A stretch of 64,000 bases of DNA from Planctomycetota bacterium. Lineage in GTDB: Bacteria > Planctomycetota > SZUA-567 > H5-PLA8. The position numbers were made by a program, and so were the translations under genes. Below are positions 45,462 through 59,335 of the stretch, one piece after another (position 1 is the stretch's first letter; each line of letters opens with the position of its first letter). The stretch covers positions 15,278-79,277 of the forward strand of contig BTVV01000017.1 in the NCBI GenBank assembly GCA_045863855.1, given 5' to 3'. The notes under the pieces are model-generated. The model did not search any database. It had not been told where the DNA came from and saw only the letters and a list, made by a program, of their open reading frames with translations.

Positions 45462-46331
45462 CTATTCCGGCTTGAAGCGTGCGCCGATCACGATGGGCGG
45501 TTCGGCCTTGGTGTGGATGTTGCGCAGTTCCAGAAGCAGGTCTTCCGGGGTCTCGAAACGGTCTTCGGGCTTTTTGTTGAGCATGCGCATCAAGAGCTTG
45601 GCGAATTCGGGCGAGAGGTTCTTGTTGCGCTTATTGGGCGGAAATAACGGGGCGTGGATGTGCATGTCCAGCACCGCGTCCTCGTTCTCGTCCTGGAAGG
45701 GCGGGGCGCCCGTGGCGCAGTGGTAGATGGTCGCGCCAAGGCTGTACAGGTCGGAGCGCGTATCGATTTCGACGCCGGGCACGGCGGCGCACTGTTCGGG
45801 CGACATGTAATACGCGGTGCCGGCGGCGACGCCTTCCCAGTCGATGATGCCGTCGCGCTGGCGCGCGAAGCCCAAGTCCACCAGTTTGCAGTTCCCGCCG
45901 CTTTCCACCAGGATGTTGTCGGGCTTGATGTCCTGGTGCACGACATCCTTGCGCCGCAGTTCGCGCAGAGCCTGGGCCATCTGGCGCAGAATCCAGATGC
46001 ACTGGCTTTCCTTCAAAGGGCCGTGCTCGAGCAGTTCTTGAAGCGATTGCCCGACCACCATTTCGAACGCGATGTACGGCCGGCCGCTGCGCACTCCGAC
46101 ATCGAGCGTTTTCACCACGTTAGGGTGATCGATCTGCATCCCCGCCTTGGCTTCTTCCTGAAACATGGTCAGGACGTCTTCGTTGTCGATGAAGCGGGAA
46201 GAAAGGAACTTCAGCGCGACGGGCGTATTGTTCTGCGTATCGAAAGCATGCCAGACGGTGCCCGTGGCGCCGCGGCCCAGACGCTTCTTCAGCGCATACT
46301 GCCCGAAGAGTGTGTTTTCCGCTCCGCTCAT
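45462..46331 (-). CDS. Hanks-type Ser/Thr protein kinase (kinase domain only, non-RD)
   Basis: LGRGATGTV, VALK, E in alphaC, HQDIKPDN, DLG, GTAYYMSPE, DLYSLG. Confidence 0.92.
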   Translation of the reverse strand: MSGAENTLFGQYALKKRLGRGATGTVWHAFDTQNNTPVALKFLSSRFIDNEDVLTMFQEEAKAGMQIDHPNVVKTLDVGVRSGRPYIAFEMVVGQSLQELLEHGPLKESQCIWILRQMAQALRELRRKDVVHQDIKPDNILVESGGNCKLVDLGFARQRDGIIDWEGVAAGTAYYMSPEQCAAVPGVEIDTRSDLYSLGATIYHCATGAPPFQDENEDAVLDMHIHAPLFPPNKRNKNLSPEFAKLLMRMLNKKPEDRFETPEDLLLELRNIHTKAEPPIVIGARFKPE

Positions 46332-46405: not shown

Positions 46406-47558
46406 TTACGTCCCGCCCGCCGTCCCCACGGCGCTCTTCTTGGGGCGCTGACTCAGCCGCCAGCGCAGGAAAGCCTCGATGAACGGATCCAACTCGCCGT
46501 CCAGCACGCCCTGCGCGTTGGTTTCCTTCAATTCCGTGCGGTGGTCGTTAACCATCGTGTACGGCTGCAAGACGTAGCTGCGAATCTGGCTGCCGAACCC
46601 AATGCGTCCTTTGTCCGCATGTGCCTGCAAGTTCTCGGCATCCTGCTTGTCCTGTTCGATCTGCTTTAGCTTGGACTTCAGGATCTGCAAGCCCAGCACA
46701 CGGTTGCGCTGCTGGCTGCGTTCGATCTGGCAGCGCACCGAGATGCCCGTCGGCAGGTGCTTGATCTGCACGCAACTCTCGACCTTGTTCACGTTCTGGC
46801 CGCCGGCGCCGCCCGAGCGGCTGGTCTTGATCTCCAGGTCCTTGTCGGGGATCACCATGTCCTTGTCGTCGTCTTCGATTTCCGGCCATACATCGGCACT
46901 CGCGAAACTCGTCTGGCGCTTGCCTTGCGCGTTAAACGGGCTGATACGGACGAGACGATGCACGCCCGCTTCGCACTGCAACAGTCCGTACGCCATTTCG
47001 CCTTCGATGCGCAGCGTCGCTGACTTGATCCCGGCTTCTTCGTTGTCGAGGCGGTCGACCAGCGTGGTCTTGAAGCCTTTTCGTTCGGCCCAACGCATGT
47101 ACATGCGCAGTAGCATCGAAGCCCAATCGCACGCTTCGGTCCCGCCTTCGCCGGCCTGAAGCGCCAAGTACGCCGTGCAGCGGTCGTGCGGTCCCTGAAG
47201 CTGCGATTGCAGTTCGAAGCGATCCACCTGCGGGGTGAGCTTCTCGAATTCGGCCTCGACCTGCTGGGCCGTGGTCTCGTCCGCTTCGGCTTCGGACAGT
47301 TCCACCAGTTCGAGCAGATCCTTGACCTGCTGTTCGATGGCCGGGAGCGGTCCGACCAGGGTTTTCAGGCCCTTCATTTCATTGACCAGCTTCTGCGCTT
47401 TTTCAGGTTGGTTCCAGAAATCGGCGCCTTCCATCAGGTGCTCGATCTCTTTCAGGCGGGCTAGGCGATGAGGTATGTCAAAGCGAGTCCCGGAGCTGCA
47501 GCAGGCGCTCACTCAGGTCCGTGATCCGGGTCCGCAAATCCGTAAAGTTGTACGCCAT
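46406..47558 (-). CDS. prfB: Peptide chain release factor 2, translated through a +1 programmed frameshift
   Basis: ATG 47558 reads [26 protein letters not shown] then CTT TGA C; the +1 frame continues DIPHRL...; SPF and GGQ motifs. Confidence 0.96.
47477..47492 (-). other. prfB +1 frameshift site
   Basis: CGGGAC TCG CTT TGA C at codons 23-27. Confidence 0.93.
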
Positions 47559-49836: not shown

Positions 49837-49866
49837 TTGACGCGCGCACCCGTGCGCGGGTATGTT
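49837..49866 (+). promoter_or_regulatory. Candidate sigma70 promoter for the SAM riboswitch operon
   Basis: TTGACG-N18-TATGTT, about 25 nt upstream of P1. Confidence 0.55.
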
Positions 49867-49891
49867 GCTGCCTACAACTGAATATCGGTCC

Positions 49892-50058
49892 GCTTATCGA
49901 GAGTGGCTGAGGGACAGGCCCTTTGAAGCCACAGCATCCCGGGACCGAACGACGGACGGCTGATACGCCCCTGTCGCTCCCCTTGGGTGCTAACTCCTGC
50001 GATGCCAAGCGGCCGTACCGGTAATGACCGGAACGGCCGTAAGGATCGAGAGATAAGC
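49892..50058 (+). ncRNA. SAM-I (S-box) riboswitch aptamer with extended P3 and P4
   Basis: P1 GCTTATC/GATAAGC; GAGAG J1/2; kink-turn P2 GTGGCTGAGGGACAGGCCC..TGAAGCCAC; P3 AGCATCC..GGTGCT; J3/4 AACTCCTG pairs with loop CAGG. Confidence 0.92.
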
Positions 50059-50115: not shown

Positions 50116-50162
50116 GCCTCTCCTCTCGTCGCACGGACCGCGGCCGGAGAGGTTTTTTGTTG
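50116..50162 (+). terminator. Intrinsic terminator of the riboswitch expression platform
   Basis: GCCTCTCC...GGAGAGGT followed by TTTTTGTT; its 5' strand CCTCTC can alternatively pair with GAGAG next to the P1 3' strand. Confidence 0.7.
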
Positions 50163-50259: not shown

Positions 50260-51543
50260 ATGCCCGCGAAGTTCATCAAGAGCCTCAAGTGCCGCGAGTG
50301 CGGCCGCCAGTACGACCTGAAGCCCGTGCACATCTGCGAGTACGACTTCGGACCGCTGGAAGTCGACTACGATTACGACGCGATCAAGAGCGTGCTGTCG
50401 CGCGAGGTGATCGAGTCGCGCCCGAAGAACATGTGGCGCTATGCCGAATTCCTCCCGCTGGCGCAGGATCCGTCCGTCGGCAAGAACACCGGCTACACCC
50501 CATTGATCCGCGCCGAACGGCTGGGCAAGGAGCTGGGGCTCAAGAATCTCTGGGTCAAAAACGACGCGGTCAATTACCCCACGCTCTCGTTCAAGGACCG
50601 CGTGGTCAGCGTGGCGCTCTCGAAGGCCAAGGAGTTCGGCTTCGACACGGTCGCGTGCGCGACCACGGGGAACCTGGGCAATTCGGTGGCCGCGCAGTCG
50701 ATCCGCGCCGGCCTCGAATGCTACATCTTCATGCCCGCGAATCTCGAACAGGGCAAGGTGGTCGGGACGAGCATTTACGGCGTCCATGTCGTCGGCATCA
50801 GCGGGAATTACGACGGCGTCAACCGGCTCTGCAGCGAGATCGGAAACAAGTTCGGCTGGGCCTTCGCGAACATCAACATGCGCCCGTATTACGCCGAAGG
50901 GTCGAAGACCTTCGGGATGGAAATTTGCGAGCAACTGGGCTGGAAGGCGCCCGACCACGTGATCGTGCCGATGGCCGGCGGCAGCTTGATCTGCAAGATC
51001 CGCAAAGCCGTCGACGAGATGTACAAGACGGGGCTGATCTCGAGCAACCACACCAAAGTTTACGGCGCGCAGGCCGCCGGCTGTTCGCCCATCAGCACCG
51101 CGGTCAAGAAGGGCTGGGAACTCTTCAAGCCCGTCAAGCCCGAGACGATCGCGCGCTCCATCGCCATCGGCAATCCCGCCGACGGCTTCTACGCGATCAA
51201 AAATATCCGCGACAGCGGCGGACACGCGGAAGACGTCACCGACGAAGAACTCGTCGAAGGCATCAAGCTGCTCGCGCGGACCGAAGGCATCTTTACCGAG
51301 ACGGCCGGCGGCGTGACCGTGGCGGTGACGAAGAAGCTCGTCGAACAGGGCCGGATTCCCGCCGACGATTGCGTCGTCATCAGCGTGACGGGGAACGGGT
51401 TGAAGACGCTCGAAGCCGTGACCAACGCCGTGCCCCGCCCGGACATTATCGAGGCGAAGCTGGCGGACTTCGAAGTGCTCGTCGAGAAGATCAAGACGCG
51501 CGGTAAGCACCCGGCGGCTCCGGTGGCGGCAGGCGGAAATTAA
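50260..51543 (+). CDS. Threonine-synthase-like PLP enzyme (probably a sulfur-incorporating paralogue)
   Basis: N-terminal CRECG..C zinc ribbon, GYTPL, PTLSFKDR (PLP Lys), TTGNL, RPYYAEGSKT, IARSIAIGNPADG, EGIFTETAGG, TGNGLK; GGAGG RBS. Confidence 0.9.
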   Translation: MPAKFIKSLKCRECGRQYDLKPVHICEYDFGPLEVDYDYDAIKSVLSREVIESRPKNMWRYAEFLPLAQDPSVGKNTGYTPLIRAERLGKELGLKNLWVKNDAVNYPTLSFKDRVVSVALSKAKEFGFDTVACATTGNLGNSVAAQSIRAGLECYIFMPANLEQGKVVGTSIYGVHVVGISGNYDGVNRLCSEIGNKFGWAFANINMRPYYAEGSKTFGMEICEQLGWKAPDHVIVPMAGGSLICKIRKAVDEMYKTGLISSNHTKVYGAQAAGCSPISTAVKKGWELFKPVKPETIARSIAIGNPADGFYAIKNIRDSGGHAEDVTDEELVEGIKLLARTEGIFTETAGGVTVAVTKKLVEQGRIPADDCVVISVTGNGLKTLEAVTNAVPRPDIIEAKLADFEVLVEKIKTRGKHPAAPVAAGGN

Positions 51544-51602: not shown

Positions 51603-52166
51603 ATGGCGATTAAGGTTCGAATTCCCGAAGCCCTGCGCACACTCACGGCGGGCGCGGACTTGGTGCAGGTCCAGGCCGCGACGGTGCAGGAGATGCTCGA
51701 CGCACTGGAAGCGCAGCATAAGGGCTTCAAAGAACGCATTTTGGACGAGAAGGGCCAGGTGCGGCGCTTCGTTAATATCTTCGTCAACGAAGAGGACATT
51801 CGCTTTCAGGATAACCTCACCACGGCGCTGCCCGACGGGACGGAAGTCTCGATCCTGCCCGCCGTCGCCGGCGGCGCGGCCAAGGCCAAGAAAGTTCCCG
51901 TCGCCGCGAAGCTGCCCGACGGGACCAAGGTTGTGCGCGTGTACCTTACGTTCGACGAGAAGACCACGGTGCGGCCGATGATCTACGAACTGATCAAGAA
52001 GTTCGACGTGGTGCCGAACATCCGCACCGCCTCGTGCCAGGAAAACATGGCGATCATGAGCCTCTCGCTGTCGGGCCCCGAAGACGCTCTGGACCGTTCG
52101 ATCCAGTGGTTGCGCAAAGAAGGTGTGCGGGTGGACCCGGTGGAAATGAATGTGGTGGAGCCGTGA
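51603..52166 (+). CDS. ThiS/MoaD/CysO-like sulfur carrier fused to a C-terminal NIL domain
   Basis: Residues 1-91 VRIP..LR..T....RRFVNIFVNEEDIRF....T.L.DG.EVSILPAVAGG; residues about 108-187 V.LTF......PMIYELIKKFDVVPNIRTA......M.L.LSG....LDRSIQWLRKEGVRVDPVE. Confidence 0.88.
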   Translation: MAIKVRIPEALRTLTAGADLVQVQAATVQEMLDALEAQHKGFKERILDEKGQVRRFVNIFVNEEDIRFQDNLTTALPDGTEVSILPAVAGGAAKAKKVPVAAKLPDGTKVVRVYLTFDEKTTVRPMIYELIKKFDVVPNIRTASCQENMAIMSLSLSGPEDALDRSIQWLRKEGVRVDPVEMNVVEP

Positions 52167-52278: not shown

Positions 52279-53328
52279 ATGTCACTCGAACGCTATAACC
52301 GCCAAGTCCTGCTTCCGTTCATCGGGGAAGAAGGGCAGCAACGGATCCTCGATTCCACGGCCGTCGTGATCGGCTGCGGCGCGCTGGGTACGGTCATTGC
52401 CAACGTCCTGGCCCGGGCGGGGGTGGGGCACCTCAAGATCATCGACCGGGATTTTGTGGAGGAGAGCAACCTGCAGCGCCAGGTGCTTTTCGACGAAGCC
52501 GATTGCCGCGAGAACTTGCCCAAGGCCGTCGCCGCCGAGCGCAAGGCGAAGCAGATCAACTCCTCGATCAAAATCGAAGGCATCGTCAGCGACGTGAACC
52601 CGACGAATATCGAAGAGTTCATCAAAGGTGCGACGGTGGTGGTGGACGGCGCGGACAATTTCGAGACGCGCTTTGTCCTCAACGATGCTTGCGTGAAGCA
52701 CGGGATTCCGTGGATTTACGGCGCGGCGGTGGGGTCGGTCGGTCTCAGCATGACCGTGATTCCCGGCAAGACGCCGTGCTTGCGCTGCATCTTCGAGACC
52801 GCGCCGCCGCCGGGCATGACGCCCACGTGCGACACCGCCGGCGTGCTGGGTTCGGTCACGGGCCTGATCGGGAATTACGAAGCCGCCGAGGCGATCAAGA
52901 TCTGCGCCGGGCGGATGGACAACCTCAATACGAAGCTGTTCCAGATCGACCTCTGGACCGGCGAGCAGCACGCCTTCAAGATCGCCCGGGCGCGCGAAGT
53001 CGCGGACTGCCCGTGCTGCAAGCGCCGCCACTTCGAGTTCCTCGAAGGGCAGGGCGCGAGCAACACCACGAGCCTGTGCGGGCGCAACGCGGTGCAGATC
53101 AATCCGCGCGGCGGCGTGAAGGTGAACCTCGACGAACTCGCCGGGCAGCTCCGCGCTTCCAGCGACGTGAAGAACCTGACCGCGAACAAGTTTCTGCTCA
53201 AATTCAACGCGCCCGGAGGCGACGAAGGGCTCGAGATCACCGTCTTCCCCGACGCCCGCGCCATCGTTAAAGGAACCAAGCAGGTTCCCGTGGCGAGGAC
53301 GGCGTACGCGAAGTACATCGGCGCTTGA
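52279..53328 (+). CDS. ThiF/MoeB family adenylyltransferase (E1-like)
   Basis: RYNRQ, IGCGALG, DRDFVEESNLQRQ, DNFETR, CLRC, TCDTAGV, CPCC. Confidence 0.94.
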   Translation: MSLERYNRQVLLPFIGEEGQQRILDSTAVVIGCGALGTVIANVLARAGVGHLKIIDRDFVEESNLQRQVLFDEADCRENLPKAVAAERKAKQINSSIKIEGIVSDVNPTNIEEFIKGATVVVDGADNFETRFVLNDACVKHGIPWIYGAAVGSVGLSMTVIPGKTPCLRCIFETAPPPGMTPTCDTAGVLGSVTGLIGNYEAAEAIKICAGRMDNLNTKLFQIDLWTGEQHAFKIARAREVADCPCCKRRHFEFLEGQGASNTTSLCGRNAVQINPRGGVKVNLDELAGQLRASSDVKNLTANKFLLKFNAPGGDEGLEITVFPDARAIVKGTKQVPVARTAYAKYIGA

Positions 53329-53408
53329 GCTAAAAGAATCGGCCGCGCCGGATGCCGGATGGGCGGCTGTTGCCGAGTACGCCTTACGCTTTGCCTTCGA
53401 GGTCCACC

Positions 53409-54572
53409 ATGATTTACTTCGACAACGCCGCGACCAGTTTCCCCAAGCCGCCCGAAGTCTTCGCGGCGATGCGGCAGTGCGCCGACGAAGCCGGCGGCAA
53501 TCCCGGACGCAGCGGACATCGCATGGCCACGGGCGCCGAAGCGCTGCTCGACGAGGCGCGCAATGCGCTGGGTAAATTCTTCGGCGTGAAGGACCCGCAC
53601 CGCGTCGTCTTCACGCTCAATTGCACCGATGCGCTGAACATGGCGATGAAAGGCTTTCTCGACGCGCAGGCCGGCGCGCATGTCGTCAGCAGCATGGGCG
53701 AACACAACAGCGTCAACCGCCCGCTGCAGCACGCGCACGACAGCAAACGACTGGAACTGCACCGCGTCAGGCTCGACGAGGCCGGAAGCTGGACGGTCGA
53801 TGAGGTATTGGACGCGGTCACGCCCAAGACGAAGCTGGTGGCGCTGACGCATTGCAGCAACGTGATCGGCACGGTCACGCCGGTGGCCGAACTGGGTCGC
53901 GCGCTGCGCGCGAAGCATCCCCATGTCCGTTACCTGGTCGATGCCGCGCAGACCGCCGGGATCGTGCCACTGGATTTGGAGGCCGCGTGCATCGACTTCC
54001 TGGCCTTCCCCGGGCATAAGGCGCTCTTTGGGCCCCCCGGCACCGGCGCGCTGCTGCTGGGCGAGCGCGTGACGCCGCAGGATCTGCATGCGTGGCGCGA
54101 GGGCGGCACCGGCGGCGACAGCCGTTCGCCGCACCAGCCGGAGCAGTTCCCTTATTACCTGGAAGGCGGGACGCCCAATACCTACGGCATAGCGGGACTG
54201 CTGGCGGGTTTGCGCGTGGTCCAGAAAGCCGGCCCCGGGAAGATTCTCGCGCACGAACAGGCGCTGCAGGCGCGGCTGATCGAGAAGCTCAGCGCCGACG
54301 AACGCTTTACGGTCTTCGGGACGCGCGACGCGAAGCGCAAGGCCGGCGTACTCTCGATCGCGATCCGCGAACGCGATGCCGCGGAGACCGCGACGATCCT
54401 CGACAGCGCTTTCGAGATCTGCGTCCGTCCGGGGTTGCACTGCGCGCCGTATACGCACGAGGCGCTGGGCACCTTCGCGCAAGGCGGGACGATCCGGCTC
54501 TCGCCTGGATTCTTCAATACGCTCGACGAATGCGACCGGGTGGTCTCCGCGCTTCAAGAGATCGCTTCGTAA
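53409..54572 (+). CDS. Cysteine desulfurase (class V aminotransferase)
   Basis: IYFDNAATSFPKP, EHNSV, DAAQTAG, PGHK, EGGTPN, RPGLHCAP (persulfide Cys). Confidence 0.92.
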   Translation: MIYFDNAATSFPKPPEVFAAMRQCADEAGGNPGRSGHRMATGAEALLDEARNALGKFFGVKDPHRVVFTLNCTDALNMAMKGFLDAQAGAHVVSSMGEHNSVNRPLQHAHDSKRLELHRVRLDEAGSWTVDEVLDAVTPKTKLVALTHCSNVIGTVTPVAELGRALRAKHPHVRYLVDAAQTAGIVPLDLEAACIDFLAFPGHKALFGPPGTGALLLGERVTPQDLHAWREGGTGGDSRSPHQPEQFPYYLEGGTPNTYGIAGLLAGLRVVQKAGPGKILAHEQALQARLIEKLSADERFTVFGTRDAKRKAGVLSIAIRERDAAETATILDSAFEICVRPGLHCAPYTHEALGTFAQGGTIRLSPGFFNTLDECDRVVSALQEIAS

Positions 54573-54892: not shown

Positions 54893-55054
54893 TTCTCTAA
54901 CTTTAAGCTACGCAACGTATTGAAGAAATTTTCGGGCGCGAGTATCCTCTTTTTCGCGAGCCGTTAGGATGCATTCGCTTCGTACCGATACCGAGAACGA
55001 GTGACCCGGCGCGATCGCGTCGGCGCGCATGAATTAAGGAAGCTGCTCCCGATC

Positions 55055-56203
55055 ATGAAAGCGCTCTGCATACTGGGCAGTACCGGCTCGATCGGCGTCA
55101 GCACGCTGGACGTGGTGCGGCGCTTCCCCGACCGCTTCCGCGTGCGCAGCCTGGTGGCGCATCGCAACGTCGAGAAGCTGGTCGAGCAGGTCCGCGAGTT
55201 TCAGCCCGCGCGGGTGGGGCTGGTGGACGACGCCAAGCTGCCCGAACTAAAGGCCGCGCTGAAAGGGTATAAAGGCGAGATTCTGGGCGGCGCGCAGTCG
55301 GCCATCGCGCTGGCCGAGGAACCCGAAAGCGGCTACGTCGTCTCGGCAATCGTGGGCGCGGCGGGCCTCTTACCGACGCTCGCGGCATTGAAGAAGGGCA
55401 AGGAAGTCGGGATCGCCAACAAAGAGCCGCTGGTGATGTGCGGGCCGTTGATGCGCAAGGCCGCCGACGAGTTTGGGGCGACGATTCTGCCCATCGACAG
55501 CGAGCATTGCGCGGTTTTTCAGTCGGCGCGCGCAGGCGCGGCCAAAGAGTTGCGCAAAATCGTCCTCACCGCCAGCGGCGGGCCGTTCCGAAAGACACCG
55601 GCCGAAAAACTTAAGACCGCCACCAAGGCCGATGCGCTTAAGCATCCCACTTGGAACATGGGCGCGAAGATCACCATCGACAGCGCCACGCTGATGAACA
55701 AGGCGCTGGAGATCATCGAGGCGCATTTCCTGTTCGATCTGCCCTACGAGGGGATTCACGTCTGGGTGCACCCGCAGTCCATCGTCCACGCGCTGGTGGA
55801 ATTCACCGACGGGTCGGTCGTCGCGCAGTTGGGCCTGCCGGATATGCGCCTGCCGATTCAGTACGCGCTGACCTATCCCGAGCGGCTCGACGGCGGCCTG
55901 CCGATCCTGCCCATCGAACGGATGAAGGAACTGACCTTCGAGGAACCCGATCACGAGCGCTTCCCGTCGCTGCAGTTTGCGTATCGCGCGGGGAAGGCGG
56001 GCGGGACGGCCCCGGCGGTACTGAACGCGGCCAACGAGGAAGCGGTGAGCCTCTTCCTGCAAGAGAAGGTTCCGTTCGTGCGGATCTTCGATTTGGTCCG
56101 TGAAGCGCTGGATAAGCACAGCGTCCAACCGATGGACACGCTGGAGACGGTGCTCGCCGCCGACCGTTGGGCGCGCGACTTCGTGCGGCATCAGGTAGAG
56201 TGA
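55055..56203 (+). CDS. dxr: 1-deoxy-D-xylulose-5-phosphate reductoisomerase
   Basis: LGSTGSIG, ANKE, PIDSEH, TASGGPF, HPTWNMGAKITIDSATLMNK, NAANE. Confidence 0.97.
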   Translation: MKALCILGSTGSIGVSTLDVVRRFPDRFRVRSLVAHRNVEKLVEQVREFQPARVGLVDDAKLPELKAALKGYKGEILGGAQSAIALAEEPESGYVVSAIVGAAGLLPTLAALKKGKEVGIANKEPLVMCGPLMRKAADEFGATILPIDSEHCAVFQSARAGAAKELRKIVLTASGGPFRKTPAEKLKTATKADALKHPTWNMGAKITIDSATLMNKALEIIEAHFLFDLPYEGIHVWVHPQSIVHALVEFTDGSVVAQLGLPDMRLPIQYALTYPERLDGGLPILPIERMKELTFEEPDHERFPSLQFAYRAGKAGGTAPAVLNAANEEAVSLFLQEKVPFVRIFDLVREALDKHSVQPMDTLETVLAADRWARDFVRHQVE

Positions 56204-56315
56204 ACGGATTGGGCGCCGCAACGCGCTCGTTTCATGCACAAGAGCAGCCCGCGCTTGGCGGCGGGCGCTTTTACGGATAAACCGCTACCCGCTTAGATTG
56301 GGTCTGGGAGAAGGT

Positions 56316-58019
56316 ATGTTGGCATTGGGCGATACGGCGGAAGCACTGGCTTTAGGCATAAAGCTTTTTTTCGTGCCTGATGATTTCTCAACCCTTTACG
56401 GCTGGTTGGGCGTCATCTTCGGATTCTCCTCGCTGATCTTCGTGCACGAGATGGGTCACTTCCTCCTCGCCAAATGGAACGGCGTGCGGGTGCATGTCTT
56501 CTCGATCGGGATGGGGCCGTACGTACTTTCGTACACCAAGGGCGAGACGGTGTACGTGCTTTCGTTGGTGCCCATCGGCGGTTACGTAAAAATGGCGGGG
56601 CAGGACGATCTGCGCCCCGATCTGCCCGAGAACAAAGACCCGCACGACTACCGCAACAAGAAGCCCGGCCAGAAAGCCGCGATCCTGGCCGCCGGCGCAA
56701 TCTTCAATCTGATCTACGCCATGGTTCTCTTCACGCTGGCCTTCTACCAAGGCGTGGAAATGAAGACGCCGCGGGTGGGGGACGTAGTCCCCGATTCGCC
56801 CTTGGCGCAGGCCGAAGCCCTTGCCGAAGGCGACACCTACGTGCCGCGCCCCTTGCAGAAGGGCGATTTGATACTTTCGGTCAATGGCGAAGCCGTGAAG
56901 AGCGACATGGAAGTGCTGCTGGCCGCCGCCGGATCCGGCCCCGGCAACCCCGTCTGGATCACTTACGCGAGACCCCGTTACGGCGCCGACCAGCCCGAGC
57001 GCGATCCGGTTCGGGTGATTACGCGCAACGACGCGCGCTTCGGCGCGGCGACCATCGGCTGGTTCCCGTTCCTGGTCGAGCACCAATACCGCCTGGGCTT
57101 CGATGCGCCGATGCGCGTCTCGGTGGCCAGCGACCCGAAGGAAGATTCGCCCGCGGGCAAAGCGGGAATCAAGAAGGGTGACGTGCTCGTGTCGGTGGAC
57201 GGCGAAGCGCTGACCAATGTGCCGCAGTTGATGAACAAGATCCGTGCCGCCGAAGGTAAGCCGCAACAATTCGCCGTCATGCGCGAAGGCGAAACGCTCG
57301 ATATGACCATCGCGGCCGAAGAGATCACCGAGGGCGACAAGAAGGTCTACTTGGTCGGCCTTCCTTTGAATGTGTGCCATCCGGTGCTCAAGATCGATCC
57401 GGCCAGCGAAGCGTACGCGCTGGGCCTTCGCGAGGGGTACTGGCTCCGGGAAGTGAACCCTAACCGCGACGAGACCGCCATCACGCTCGCCTTTTACGAT
57501 CCGCTCGATCCGGAACGGACCGCTCAGAGCATCCGGATCAAGAACGACGGTTCGGGCCCGGAAGACATGGCATTAAGCATCTACCTGGAGCAGATGCATG
57601 TCGTGAAGGCCGACGGGGTTTTTGAGGCGCTTGGGATGGCCTGGGACGATCTGGTCCGGCACTCCGTCTCGGTTTTCACCATCTTGCGCGGCCTGTTGAC
57701 GGGCAACGTGAGCCCCAAGTCGCTCTCCAGCGCCGTGGGAATCGGCAAGGCGACTTTCGACGTCTCGATGGACTCGTCTTTCATGAAGTACCTTTGGTTC
57801 ATCGCGTTCATCTCGGTCAATCTGGGTGTCTTGCAGTTCGTGCCGATTCCGCTGCTCGACGGTTGGCACCTGCTGATGATTCTGGTGGAGAAGTTGAAGG
57901 GCGGCCCGGTGGCGCCGCGGATTCAGGAAGGGTTCCAGTACGTGGGGCTCTTCATCATTCTGAGTTTGTTGATTTACGCCACCAAGAACGACTTGATGCG
58001 CATCTTCGGTCAACCGTAA
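56316..58019 (+). CDS. rseP: RIP metalloprotease RseP (site-2 protease with PDZ domains)
   Basis: HEMGH, FSIGMG, PIGGYVKM, PDZ (DSPAGKAGIKKGD), PIPLLDG; follows dxr. Confidence 0.92.
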   Translation: MLALGDTAEALALGIKLFFVPDDFSTLYGWLGVIFGFSSLIFVHEMGHFLLAKWNGVRVHVFSIGMGPYVLSYTKGETVYVLSLVPIGGYVKMAGQDDLRPDLPENKDPHDYRNKKPGQKAAILAAGAIFNLIYAMVLFTLAFYQGVEMKTPRVGDVVPDSPLAQAEALAEGDTYVPRPLQKGDLILSVNGEAVKSDMEVLLAAAGSGPGNPVWITYARPRYGADQPERDPVRVITRNDARFGAATIGWFPFLVEHQYRLGFDAPMRVSVASDPKEDSPAGKAGIKKGDVLVSVDGEALTNVPQLMNKIRAAEGKPQQFAVMREGETLDMTIAAEEITEGDKKVYLVGLPLNVCHPVLKIDPASEAYALGLREGYWLREVNPNRDETAITLAFYDPLDPERTAQSIRIKNDGSGPEDMALSIYLEQMHVVKADGVFEALGMAWDDLVRHSVSVFTILRGLLTGNVSPKSLSSAVGIGKATFDVSMDSSFMKYLWFIAFISVNLGVLQFVPIPLLDGWHLLMILVEKLKGGPVAPRIQEGFQYVGLFIILSLLIYATKNDLMRIFGQP

Positions 58020-58033
58020 AGGGGAGGGCATCG

Positions 58034-59335
<1,302 letters not shown>

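What the first reader, a model, noticed from the sequence alone, without database searches (positions are those of the whole stretch)
51603..52166. Ubiquitin-like sulfur carrier whose Gly-Gly is capped by an in-frame NIL domain (possible processed or regulated precursor)
Seen: residues 1-91 form a complete ThiS/MoaD/CysO-like domain ending PAVAGG (GGC GGC at 51870-51875). There is no stop; the frame continues through a basic linker (AAKAKKVPVAAK) into a full NIL domain. Established: E1-like ThiF/MoeB enzymes need a free C-terminal Gly to adenylate and thiocarboxylate a carrier. Some carriers carry short extensions trimmed by JAMM/Mov34 proteases (e.g. the Wolinella HcyS/HcyD system). The NIL domain of MetN is a methionine-sensing regulatory module. 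Inference: this is a polyprotein, analogous to ubiquitin-fusion precursors, that must be cut after GG to become active. The roughly 96-aa NIL cap could gate maturation according to Met/SAM status, or be released as a stoichiometric partner. No JAMM protease is encoded in this window, so the protease would be unlinked or novel. A whole-domain cap is much larger than the short extensions I know of.
Basis: partly seen in the sequence, partly recalled or inferred. Interest (0 to 1): 0.85.

Follow-up and report, generated by a model that had tools for sequence, protein, structure and literature searches.

The report
Sulfur-carrier precursor fused to NIL partner
This gene makes a small sulfur-carrier protein for methionine synthesis joined end to end with its usual partner, a methionine-sensor-like NIL domain, so the carrier's reactive Gly-Gly end is buried and most likely has to be cut free by a protease encoded elsewhere in the genome.

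Summary
ORF 51603-52166 encodes 187 aa: a CysO/MetO-like ThiS domain (1-91, ending PAVAGG), a disordered linker, then a NIL domain. Contigs from four other studies cross the junction with no stop.

It lies in a SAM-riboswitch-controlled operon: ThrC-like PLP enzyme, carrier-NIL, E1, cysteine desulfurase. This is a variant of the MetM/MetO route from O-phosphohomoserine to homocysteine (Streptomyces, 2024).

In 27 of 80 related loci the carrier and NIL are separate neighbouring genes, 15 with the carrier ending exactly at GG-stop. GG is invariant in 54 fused proteins. A JAMM protease with an intact catalytic motif sits on another contig (C125). Such a JAMM was found in 14 of 14 other fused-type genomes and lies inside the cluster in 7 of 9 fused loci. 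Phylogenetically this correlation is close to one event.

Cleavage after G91 is therefore well supported but not shown. Whole-domain caps are already known (MoaX, Deinococcus MoaD-MoaE). The NIL partner and this fusion were not in the papers I searched. NIL's role is unknown; it keeps the Asn that binds methionine in MetN.

This scan reported the same fusion before on other DNA (e1-884408, e1-1302812).

The parts
49837..49866 (+). promoter-like site TTGACG-18-TATGTT ahead of the riboswitch
   Evidence: Consensus scan found 1 site, against 0.8 expected in shuffles. Weak on its own.
49891..50030 (+). SAM-I riboswitch aptamer (RF00162)
   Evidence: 56.5 bits (gathering 44.4), E 3.3e-11, full model 1-108. 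The same family lies directly upstream of the ThrC-like gene in 6 of 10 related loci searched.
50116..50162 (+). terminator-like hairpin followed by UUUUUUGUU; likely the riboswitch expression platform
   Evidence: Hairpin of -19.7 kcal/mol, frequency 0.82 in the ensemble, z -1.55. The longer 81-nt fold did not select it. The pattern scan did not list it. Inferred.
50260..51543 (+). ThrC-like PLP enzyme, MetM-type candidate homocysteine synthase with an N-terminal Cys-rich Zn-ribbon-like motif. The mechanical ORF starts at GTG 50176; ATG 50260 after GGGAGG is the likely start.
   Evidence: PALP 1.3e-71. TIGR00260 283.7 bits. The start is read from the sequence and from where homologues begin. 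C39, C42 and C54 are invariant. It is 47-68% identical to the ThrC-like gene next to the carrier in the related loci. A second, separate thrC lies at C11.
51603..51875 (+). ThiS/MoaD-fold sulfur-carrier domain (aa 1-91), CysO/MetO-like, ending PAVAGG. The GG codons are at 51870-51875.
   Evidence: Pfam ThiS 5-91. Foldseek: CysO 4n6e_B and 3dwg_C, 46% identity, TM 0.94 and 0.91. P86, A87, A89, G90 and G91 are invariant in 54 fused proteins.
51876..51923 (+). linker (aa 92-107), basic, variable in length and sequence among relatives; the proposed cleavage is at its start, after G91
   Evidence: pLDDT is below 50 for residues 90-105. The alignment shows variable length and sequence.
51924..52166 (+). 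NIL domain (aa 108-187) plus stop codon
   Evidence: Pfam NIL 112-177. Fold matches the MetN C2 domain: 3tui_C rmsd 0.8 over 74 columns, and 3dhx_A. N139, R141 and A143 are invariant. N139 aligns with MetN N295.
52279..53328 (+). ThiF/MoeB-family E1-like adenylyltransferase, no rhodanese domain detected
   Evidence: ThiF 8e-76 at 6-239. PRK12475 344 bits over its full length, below its cut-off of 510.
53352..54572 (+). class-V PLP cysteine desulfurase family protein, the likely sulfur donor
   Evidence: Aminotran_5 1.5e-79. TIGR01977 387.5 bits, cut-off 377.

Best explanation
The gene encodes a precursor of the sulfur carrier of a MetM/MetO-type homocysteine pathway. The carrier (aa 1-91) is fused through a disordered linker to the small NIL protein that is its separate neighbour in many other lineages.

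Proposed sequence of events (every biochemical step is inferred; none is shown):
1. When SAM is low, the SAM-I riboswitch lets the operon be transcribed: ThrC-like enzyme, carrier-NIL, E1, cysteine desulfurase.
2. The fusion is cut after Gly91. The most likely protease is the only JAMM/MPN+ enzyme of this type in the genome (G000:C125:3560-4009). Cutting yields a free-GG carrier and one NIL protein per carrier.
3. The E1 adenylates Gly91.
4. Sulfur taken from cysteine by the adjacent desulfurase converts Gly91 to a thiocarboxylate.
5. The ThrC-like enzyme uses the thiocarboxylate with O-phosphohomoserine to make homocysteine.

The released NIL domain probably acts as a dimeric amino-acid-binding accessory or regulator of this module, with methionine or homocysteine as the likely ligand.
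For: The fusion is real and widespread.
- Four studies' contigs cross the junction.
- 71 of 104 homologue clusters have both domains.
- Two ESM Atlas clusters have this architecture, with 82 and 268 members.

GG and the junction.
- G90 and G91 are invariant in 54 of 54 fused proteins, while the linker varies.
- AlphaFold2 gives two confident domains with residues 90-105 below pLDDT 50 and pTM 0.45.

Fusion versus split genes. I classified 36 of the 80 related loci as holding NIL (a 37th, L029, see evidence against):
- 9 are fused.
- 15 have a carrier ending exactly at GG-stop plus a separate NIL gene. In L056 the NIL gene comes first.
- 12 have a 1-6 aa tail after GG plus a NIL gene.

Pathway.
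- A ThrC-like gene lies directly upstream in most loci, including the Streptomyces loci whose carriers end GGC. That matches the MetM/MetO/Mec/MoeZ system listed in GapMind 2026 (Table 2 and S1D text).
- A SAM riboswitch is present here and in 6 of 10 relatives.
- The genome (93.9% complete) has a second thrC and no MetX or MetA hit.

Protease.
- The C125 ORF has E27, H88, H90, S98 and D101, all invariant across 11 aligned JAMMs.
- Of 13 JAMM ORFs found in the related loci, 8 hit the own genome by tblastn, and they hit only C125.
- A JAMM lies inside the fetched locus in 7 of 9 fused, 3 of 12 tailed and 0 of 15 exact-GG loci.
- Genome-wide, a JAMM was found in 14 of 14 fused, 11 of 12 tailed and 4 of 15 exact-GG genomes.
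- The other three ThiS-family genes of this genome end in GG-stop, so this is the only capped carrier detected.

Precedent. MoaX must be cleaved at Gly82. DRJAMM cleaves MoaD-MoaE.

NIL.
- This is the only NIL domain in the genome.
- N139 aligns with MetN N295, whose N295A mutation abolishes L-Met binding.
- Among the 150 best representatives of this NIL subfamily, 124 stand alone, 12 are tandem NIL-NIL, 10 ThiS-NIL, 2 JAMM-NIL, 1 MetM-NIL and 1 MetM-ThiS-NIL.
Against: - No cleavage, thiocarboxylate or enzyme activity was observed. Everything rests on sequence and comparison.
- The JAMM correlation is weak once relatedness is counted. On the MetM tree, JAMM absence needs one change (a Verrucomicrobiota/Acidiferrales clade). 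Only 3 independent capped-versus-free pairs exist; JAMM goes the same way in 1 and does not differ in 2.
- 10 of the 41 genomes contributed rows to the JAMM profile, so they match by construction.
- Most of these genomes are metagenome bins, so a miss is not absence.
- Four exact-GG genomes do have a JAMM, so the enzyme may serve other ends, such as product release or other carriers.
- Here the JAMM is unlinked. It follows a UvrD-like helicase gene with no riboswitch of its own visible.
- The E1 lacks the rhodanese domain of MoeZ.
- The characterised S. albulus MetM sequence was not compared directly. This enzyme falls in the sister clade of the actinobacterial one.
- One Cys/Met-metabolism PLP enzyme of unclear specificity exists at C4, so another homocysteine route is not excluded. 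A canonical thrB was found only weakly.
- L029, which is exact-GG plus NIL, was left out by oversight.
Confidence: 0.7

Rival explanations
1. The fusion is cleaved after GG, but not by the C125 JAMM. Another protease, or the E1 or ThrC-like enzyme complex, does it, and the JAMM serves a different job such as hydrolysing carrier-amino-acid adducts or deconjugation.
For: The JAMM is unlinked here and follows a helicase gene. Four of 15 free-GG genomes also keep such a JAMM. The protease for MoaX was unidentified in the paper whose abstract I read.
Against: The JAMM lies inside the cluster in 7 of 9 fused loci from several phyla. It is present in 14 of 14 other fused-type genomes. It is the only hit of this type in the own genome. 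JAMMs are the enzymes shown to cut MoaD-MoaE.
Confidence: 0.12
2. The fusion works uncleaved. The ThiS domain is not a thiocarboxylate carrier here but an adaptor or regulatory module tethering NIL to the E1 or ThrC-like enzyme, and sulfur reaches the PLP enzyme by another route.
For: No cleavage has been seen. The genome has three other ThiS-family genes with free GG. Structure prediction shows two independent, stable domains.
Against: An internal Gly cannot be adenylated by an E1 (established chemistry of ThiF/MoeB), yet GG is invariant in 54 of 54 fused proteins. Orthologues with free GG sit in the same position beside the ThrC-like gene. The E1 and desulfurase are in the same operon.
Confidence: 0.08
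3. The operon makes a different sulfur compound (cysteine by a CysO/CysM-like route, or a thio-cofactor or natural product) rather than homocysteine.
For: The carrier domain is 46% identical to CysO chains solved with CysM and with BexX. The substrate of the PLP enzyme is untested.
Against: The PLP enzyme is ThrC-like, not CysK/CysM-like: TIGR00260 scores 283.7 bits against 43.3 for cysKM. A SAM riboswitch controls it here and in 6 of 10 relatives. No MetX or MetA was found in the genome. NIL domains are otherwise tied to methionine or homocysteine.
Confidence: 0.07
4. Artefact: a sequencing or assembly error, or a recent read-through, removed a stop after GG.
For: Many relatives do have a stop exactly there.
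Against: Four studies' contigs agree with no indel at the junction. The same-genus genome and four of five other family members searched carry a full-length fused frame. 71 homologue clusters at 44-97% identity are fused.
Confidence: 0.01

Closest known systems
MetM/MetO thiocarboxylate route from O-phosphohomoserine to homocysteine (Streptomyces albulus; Hasebe et al. 2024, Appl Environ Microbiol 90:e0124724). Known to me only through GapMind 2026 (PMC13759103, Table 2 and S1D text). The original paper is not held.
   Same: A ThrC-like PLP enzyme sits next to a CysO-like ThiS-family carrier. An E1 activates the carrier. A JAMM (Mec) matures a capped carrier end. The pathway is tied to methionine.
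   Different: A conserved NIL partner is present, and it is absent from 21 of 22 rows of the actinobacterial clade. The E1 has no rhodanese domain and is followed by a cysteine desulfurase. The JAMM is unlinked. A SAM riboswitch is present. The ThrC-like enzyme falls in the sister clade.
Fused molybdopterin synthases: MoaX of Mycobacterium tuberculosis (PMC4326299, abstract read) and MoaD-MoaE of Deinococcus radiodurans cut by DRJAMM (PMC8832034, passages read)
   Same: A ThiS/MoaD-fold carrier is fused at its GG to its whole-domain partner. Cleavage after GG is required. In Deinococcus a JAMM does it. The partner is a separate gene in other organisms.
   Different: The pathway is different (molybdopterin). 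The partner MoaE is an enzyme subunit that binds the carrier tail. NIL is a small ligand-binding-type domain of unknown role.
CysO-CysM-Mec+ of M. tuberculosis and HcyS-HcyD-HcyF-MetY of Wolinella succinogenes.
   Same: Closest solved carriers (46% identity). Sulfur is transferred as a protein thiocarboxylate to an amino-acid backbone by a PLP enzyme. A JAMM trims short extensions.
   Different: The PLP enzymes belong to other families (CysM, MetY). The extensions are one or a few residues. There is no NIL partner.
C2/NIL domain of the methionine importer ATPase MetN (3dhx, 3tui, 3dhw; PMC6233128, passages read)
   Same: Same Pfam family and fold (rmsd 0.8 over 74 columns). The Asn whose N295A change abolishes L-methionine binding aligns with invariant N139. 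Tandem NIL-NIL relatives fit the dimeric way C2 domains work.
   Different: Here the domain is not part of a transporter. Sequence similarity is low: phmmer E 0.75 for the single sequence, 7.6e-8 with the profile. Its ligand and target are unknown.
NIL/ferredoxin protein of the DUF39 homocysteine pathway (MA1822, DvMF_0262; PMC5764234, passages read)
   Same: A NIL domain is genetically required in another, unrelated route to homocysteine.
   Different: That protein carries ferredoxin domains and works with DUF39 on aspartate semialdehyde. Here there is no ferredoxin, and no other NIL hit in the genome.
PDB 1v8c, 'MoaD related protein' of Thermus thermophilus (168 aa)
   Same: A solved chain whose MoaD-like domain aligns through ...PPVAGG at about residues 87-88 and then continues for about 80 residues. 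It is a carrier with an internal GG and an extra C-terminal domain.
   Different: Its C-terminal part gave no NIL match (one stretch only). The Thermus control genome has no Pfam NIL hit. Its function is unknown to me.

Membership tests
ThiS/MoaD-family sulfur carrier (CysO/MetO/SAMP1-like) | beta-grasp ThiS/MoaD fold | tested here: met
   Pfam ThiS 55.9 bits. NCBIfam SAMP1 62.9 bits, cut-off 60. Foldseek CysO TM 0.94 and 0.91 at 46% identity.
ThiS/MoaD-family sulfur carrier (CysO/MetO/SAMP1-like) | Gly-Gly at the end of the beta-grasp domain | tested here: met
   PAVAGG at residues 86-91. G90 and G91 are invariant in 54 of 54 fused proteins. The motif aligns with the C-terminal GG of CysO chains.
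ThiS/MoaD-family sulfur carrier (CysO/MetO/SAMP1-like) | free C-terminal carboxylate on that Gly in the working protein | not testable with these tools
   As encoded, the GG is internal. Whether it is exposed by cleavage needs protein data.
ThiS/MoaD-family sulfur carrier (CysO/MetO/SAMP1-like) | cognate E1-like adenylyltransferase | tested here: met
   ThiF 8e-76 in the next gene.
MetM/MetO homocysteine pathway | ThrC-like PLP enzyme adjacent to the carrier gene | tested here: met
   50260-51543 lies directly upstream. The same pairing is seen in most of the 80 loci, including Streptomyces.
MetM/MetO homocysteine pathway | orthology to the characterised MetM | tested here: inconclusive
   52-53% identity to Streptomyces ThrC-like genes next to GGC-ended carriers. 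On the tree it lies in the sister clade, supported at 98. The characterised sequence itself was not available.
MetM/MetO homocysteine pathway | JAMM (Mec) protease that matures the carrier end | tested here: met
   A candidate is present with all catalytic residues, unlinked on C125. Its activity was not tested.
MetM/MetO homocysteine pathway | MoeZ-type E1 with rhodanese domain | tested here: not met
   No rhodanese hit in the 349-aa E1. A cysteine desulfurase gene follows instead.
MetM/MetO homocysteine pathway | uses O-phosphohomoserine and carrier thiocarboxylate to make homocysteine | not testable with these tools
   Indirect support only: SAM riboswitch, no MetX or MetA, a second thrC.
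JAMM-processed carrier fusion precursors (MoaX type) | conserved GG at the junction and a partner that is a separate gene elsewhere | tested here: met
JAMM-processed carrier fusion precursors (MoaX type) | cleavage after GG demonstrated | not testable with these tools
   Needs intact-mass or proteomic data.
NIL domain (PF09383) | profile match above the curated cut-off and MetN C2-like fold | tested here: met
   44.2 bits against a cut-off of 24. 3tui_C rmsd 0.8 over 74 columns.
NIL domain (PF09383) | methionine-binding Asn of MetN (N295) | tested here: met
   N139 aligns with N295. The numbering was checked against A299 and M301. The position is invariant. Ligand binding itself was not tested.

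The most novel reading that the evidence does not exclude
NIL is a methionine/homocysteine-sensing subunit that controls this carrier pathway after translation. In the fused form it makes release of the active carrier by the JAMM protease depend on the ligand. That would be a bacterial ubiquitin-like polyprotein whose cap is a metabolite sensor, adding a fast feedback layer beneath the SAM riboswitch. Three observations allow this reading but do not show it: the Met-binding Asn is kept, two representative clusters are JAMM-NIL single ORFs, and NIL appears in two unrelated homocysteine pathways.
Probability: 0.15. Interest if true: 0.75.

Novelty: new variant of a known kind. Interest (0 to 1): 0.5.

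Why it matters
- The MetM/MetO route to homocysteine was described only in 2024, in Streptomyces. This locus belongs to a large sister branch found here in Planctomycetota, Verrucomicrobiota, Nitrospirota, Thermodesulfobacteriota, Zetaproteobacteria, Chloroflexota and others. That branch carries a third conserved component, a small NIL protein, which the papers I could search do not mention.
- NIL domains now turn up in three methionine settings: the MetN importer, the DUF39/NIL-ferredoxin pathway, and this one. That makes their function a well-posed, testable question.
- The fusion gives a natural substrate for studying how bacterial JAMM proteases mature ubiquitin-fold carriers.
- It is also a warning for annotation: these operons are labelled 'threonine synthase' and 'MoaD/ThiS family protein', and genomes carrying them may be wrongly called methionine auxotrophs.

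Tried and rejected
- Complex prediction with three chains (ThrC-like 30-455, carrier 1-91, NIL 104-187 as partner) gave no answer, with scores 0.00 and 0.01 against a mark of 0.32. It says nothing either way about what NIL binds.
- AlphaFold2 of the fusion gave no confident packing between the domains (pTM 0.45), so it gives no clue to a carrier-NIL interface.
- A phylogenetically corrected test of 'capped GG goes with JAMM' had too few independent pairs: 3, of which 1 went the same way and 2 showed no difference.
- The 81-nt fold around the putative terminator did not pick the hairpin. Only the 49-nt fold did.
- The Hasebe 2024 paper could not be read.
- Literature searches: 'NIL domain' with 'sulfur carrier' found 0 papers. 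'NIL domain' with 'homocysteine' found 5 papers, of which 2 were listed; both concern NIL/ferredoxin or CoM. A search for at least two of 'NIL domain', MoaD, ThiS and 'ubiquitin-like' listed 12 of 38,783 papers, and none of the 12 holds 'NIL domain'. Iyer et al. 2006 has no 'NIL'.
- The fetched relative of the JAMM-NIL protein P0132 (L143, 82% identity) has JAMM and NIL as two overlapping ORFs in different frames. That fusion may therefore be real or a frameshifted gene call.
- P0155 (MetM-ThiS-NIL) looks chimeric.
- Whether the C4 Cys/Met PLP enzyme offers another homocysteine route could not be settled. Its best NCBIfam score was 312.7 bits against a cut-off of 549.7.
Full report
**1. Observation**

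Window 51603-52166 (+) is a single 187-aa ORF.
- Pfam finds ThiS at 5-91 and NIL at 112-177, both above their curated cut-offs. NCBIfam's SAMP1 model just passes, at 62.9 bits against 60.
- The codons GGC GGC at 51870-51875 are followed by GCG GCC AAG, not a stop.
- The junction is not an error. Contigs from four runs of four studies, none flagged as a possible source, cross 51870-51880 with no indel and no substitution there.
- 71 of 104 homologue clusters found with the protein carry both domains, at 44-97% identity.
- A sample of 301 genomes of the phylum shows full-length fused frames in the same-genus genome and in four of five other family members searched (5 of 6 in all). Two further genomes (G072, G065) gave near-full-length matches.
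- The ESM Atlas holds two clusters of this architecture, with 82 and 268 members.

**2. Anatomy**

- AlphaFold2 on an alignment of 54 fused proteins gives mean pLDDT 82.8 and two well-folded domains, 1-89 and 108-180. Residues 90-105 fall below pLDDT 50, and pTM of 0.45 means no confident packing between the domains.
- By Foldseek the first domain is closest to CysO: 4n6e_B and 3dwg_C, 46% identity, TM 0.94 and 0.91. The second is closest to the C2/NIL domain of MetN: 3tui_C, rmsd 0.8 over 74 columns.
- In the 54 fused proteins P86, A87, A89, G90 and G91 are invariant. The linker that follows varies in length and sequence.

**3. Context in the window**

- A SAM-I riboswitch (RF00162, 56.5 bits against a gathering score of 44.4, E 3.3e-11) lies at 49891-50030. 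A promoter-like site precedes it. A hairpin plus U-run follows at about 50116-50162. The hairpin is convincing only in the short fold.
- Four + strand genes follow:
  - a ThrC-like PLP enzyme, with likely start ATG 50260 after GGGAGG;
  - the carrier-NIL gene;
  - a ThiF/MoeB-type E1 without a rhodanese domain;
  - a TIGR01977-family cysteine desulfurase.
- No + strand terminator-like site was found between these genes.
- The genome is 93.9% complete. It has a second thrC on C11 and no MetX or MetA hit. It has one Cys/Met-metabolism PLP enzyme of unclear type. This gene holds its only NIL domain.

**4. Relatives**

A pattern scan of one genome per species returned 80 loci. Local tblastn and frame tracing gave the following.
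- The ThrC-like gene lies directly upstream of the carrier in most loci. These include Streptomyces loci whose carriers end GGC.
- I classified 36 loci as holding a NIL domain near the carrier. A 37th, L029, I left out by oversight.
  - 9 are single fused ORFs, from Thermodesulfobacteriota/'Deltaproteobacteria', Acidulodesulfobacterium, Planctomycetia and Omnitrophota.
  - 15 have a carrier ending exactly at GG-stop with a separate NIL gene. In L056 the NIL gene comes first, and in L079 it is 4 kb away.
  - 12 have 1-6 extra residues after GG plus a NIL gene.
- The fusion therefore joins two proteins that are separate neighbours elsewhere, and the carrier half has a free GG in the split forms.
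- A SAM riboswitch precedes the ThrC-like gene in 6 of 10 further loci searched.
- A quick maximum-likelihood tree of 59 ThrC-like sequences splits into two clades. One is an actinobacterial clade of 22 rows, 21 without NIL, which includes Streptomyces. The other has 37 rows, is supported at 98, and holds all fused, tailed and nearly all split-NIL forms.
- On that tree the 'fused' label needs four changes, at least two of them forced by well-supported branches.

**5. The protease**

- Pfam Prok-JAB hits the own genome at C125 (E 2.2e-18) and twice weakly elsewhere.
- The C125 ORF (149 aa; G000:C125:3560-4009) follows a UvrD-like helicase gene and carries E..HSHPx7SxxD.
- A profile built from hits found a JAMM gene inside the fetched locus in 7 of 9 fused, 3 of 12 tailed and 0 of 15 exact-GG loci. 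Three carrier-only loci hold a more distant JAMM.
- Of the 13 JAMM ORFs from those loci, 8 hit the own genome by tblastn, and all 8 hit only C125.
- In an alignment of 11 of these proteins the catalytic E, H, H, S and D are invariant.
- Searching 41 whole genomes with that alignment found a JAMM in 14 of 14 fused-type, 11 of 12 tailed and 4 of 15 exact-GG genomes.
- The other three ThiS-family genes of the own genome all end in GG-stop, so the fusion is the only capped carrier detected there.

**6. Limits of that correlation**

- Ten of the 41 genomes gave rows to the profile, so they match by construction.
- Most of the genomes are bins.
- On the ThrC-like tree the absence of JAMM is a single change (one Verrucomicrobiota/Acidiferrales clade).
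- Only three independent capped-versus-free pairs exist. One goes the expected way and two show no difference.
- The pattern is what the cleavage model predicts, but it does not amount to independent statistical support.
- The strongest comparative argument is the repeated placement of a JAMM inside fused and tailed clusters of several phyla, together with the invariant GG.

**7. What is known**

- GapMind 2026 lists MetO (carrier), Mec (the hydrolase that matures MetO), MoeZ (ligase) and MetM (thiocarboxylate-dependent homocysteine synthase, a ThrC homologue using O-phosphohomoserine) from Streptomyces albulus, citing Hasebe et al. 2024. I read Table 2, the S1D text and the reference. The original paper is not held.
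- Whole-domain caps are established. MoaX must be cleaved between Gly82 and Ser83 (abstract). DRJAMM cleaves the Deinococcus MoaD-MoaE fusion to expose the C-terminal Gly (passages).
- PDB 1v8c is a solved 168-aa MoaD-related chain that also continues past an internal ..VAGG.
- NIL/ferredoxin proteins are required in the unrelated DUF39 homocysteine pathway (passages).
- In MetN the C2/NIL domain binds L-methionine, and N295A abolishes binding (passages).
- None of my searches found a paper linking a NIL domain to a ThiS/MoaD carrier.

**8. NIL**

- The window's N139 aligns with MetN N295. I checked the numbering against A299 and M301, which the paper names.
- N139, R141 and A143 are invariant in the fused set. 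The corresponding positions are invariant in 20 NIL domains that include split forms.
- A full-library profile search gave 1636 representatives at E up to 1e-3. I sorted the best 150 with local HMMs: 124 standalone NIL, 12 tandem NIL-NIL, 10 ThiS-NIL, 2 JAMM-NIL, 1 MetM-NIL and 1 probably chimeric MetM-ThiS-NIL.
- In the one relative of a JAMM-NIL protein I could fetch, the order is carrier (ending GGLPLS), JAMM, NIL. There JAMM and NIL are overlapping separate ORFs.
- NIL thus travels with, and is occasionally fused to, each protein of the module. Its tandem forms fit a dimer.
- NIL has no conserved cysteine, so a persulfide relay role is unlikely.
- I infer an amino-acid-binding accessory or regulatory subunit. 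What it binds and what it acts on is open.
- NIL persists in free-GG lineages where no JAMM was found, so gating of cleavage cannot be its general function.

**9. Verdict**

I put it at about 0.7 for the whole chain, but it is not demonstrated.
- The claim that such a large cap is unheard of is wrong.
- This is a new variant of a known kind. The conserved NIL partner and its fusion to the carrier are the undescribed parts.
- This scan reached the same reading before on other DNA (e1-884408 and e1-1302812, and split-NIL operons in several notes). Those notes also prompted my riboswitch search.

Noticed in passing
L128 427-1920 (-) and 1961-2404 (-) (genome G276, same phylum): A 497-aa ORF fuses a CysO-like carrier (…PAVAGGAPKAPE…) to a rhodanese domain and a MoeZ-type E1. 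A 147-aa JAMM gene and a PALP gene lie next to it. This is another whole-domain cap on an internal GG.
   Followed up: partly
P0104 and open frames of about 500-700 aa (e.g. G054:C6, G145:C1, G261:C490): ThrC-like enzyme fused in front of the carrier, which then ends at a free GG (MetM-MetO single proteins).
   Followed up: no
L008 4440-4706 and 4769-5041: Two carrier genes in tandem, both ending GG-stop, ahead of one NIL gene in a Verrucomicrobiota bin.
   Followed up: no
L025 8456-9490, L027 1729-2751, L028 1960-2922: A second, more distant ThrC-like gene (34-37% identity) directly after the NIL gene in Nitrospirota loci.
   Followed up: no
P0106, P0108, P0118, P0176 and 8 more: Tandem NIL-NIL proteins of 122-193 aa belonging to this NIL subfamily.
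   Followed up: partly
P0144 (135 aa): NIL domain followed by a fragment matching the 4HBT thioesterase superfamily (2.1e-5).
   Followed up: no
L033, L044 (Brocadiaceae-type Planctomycetota): The closest ThrC-like relatives of the window's clade have carriers with short tails (GGH, GGNIN) and no NIL gene in the fetched DNA.
   Followed up: no
window 55001-56203, 56298-58019, 57794-59335: dxr and an RseP-type M50 protease follow the operon. A GGDEF-PilZ ORF overlaps the end of the M50 ORF by about 225 nt as listed mechanically, so its true start is probably later.
   Followed up: no
window 46406-47512 (-), 45462-46331 (-): A peptide chain release factor gene (PCRF and RF-1 domains) and a Ser/Thr protein kinase gene lie upstream on the other strand.
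   Followed up: no
own genome: No canonical thrB above the cut-off (best 35.7 bits), although the proposed pathway and the second ThrC both need O-phosphohomoserine. A non-canonical homoserine kinase may be present.
   Followed up: no
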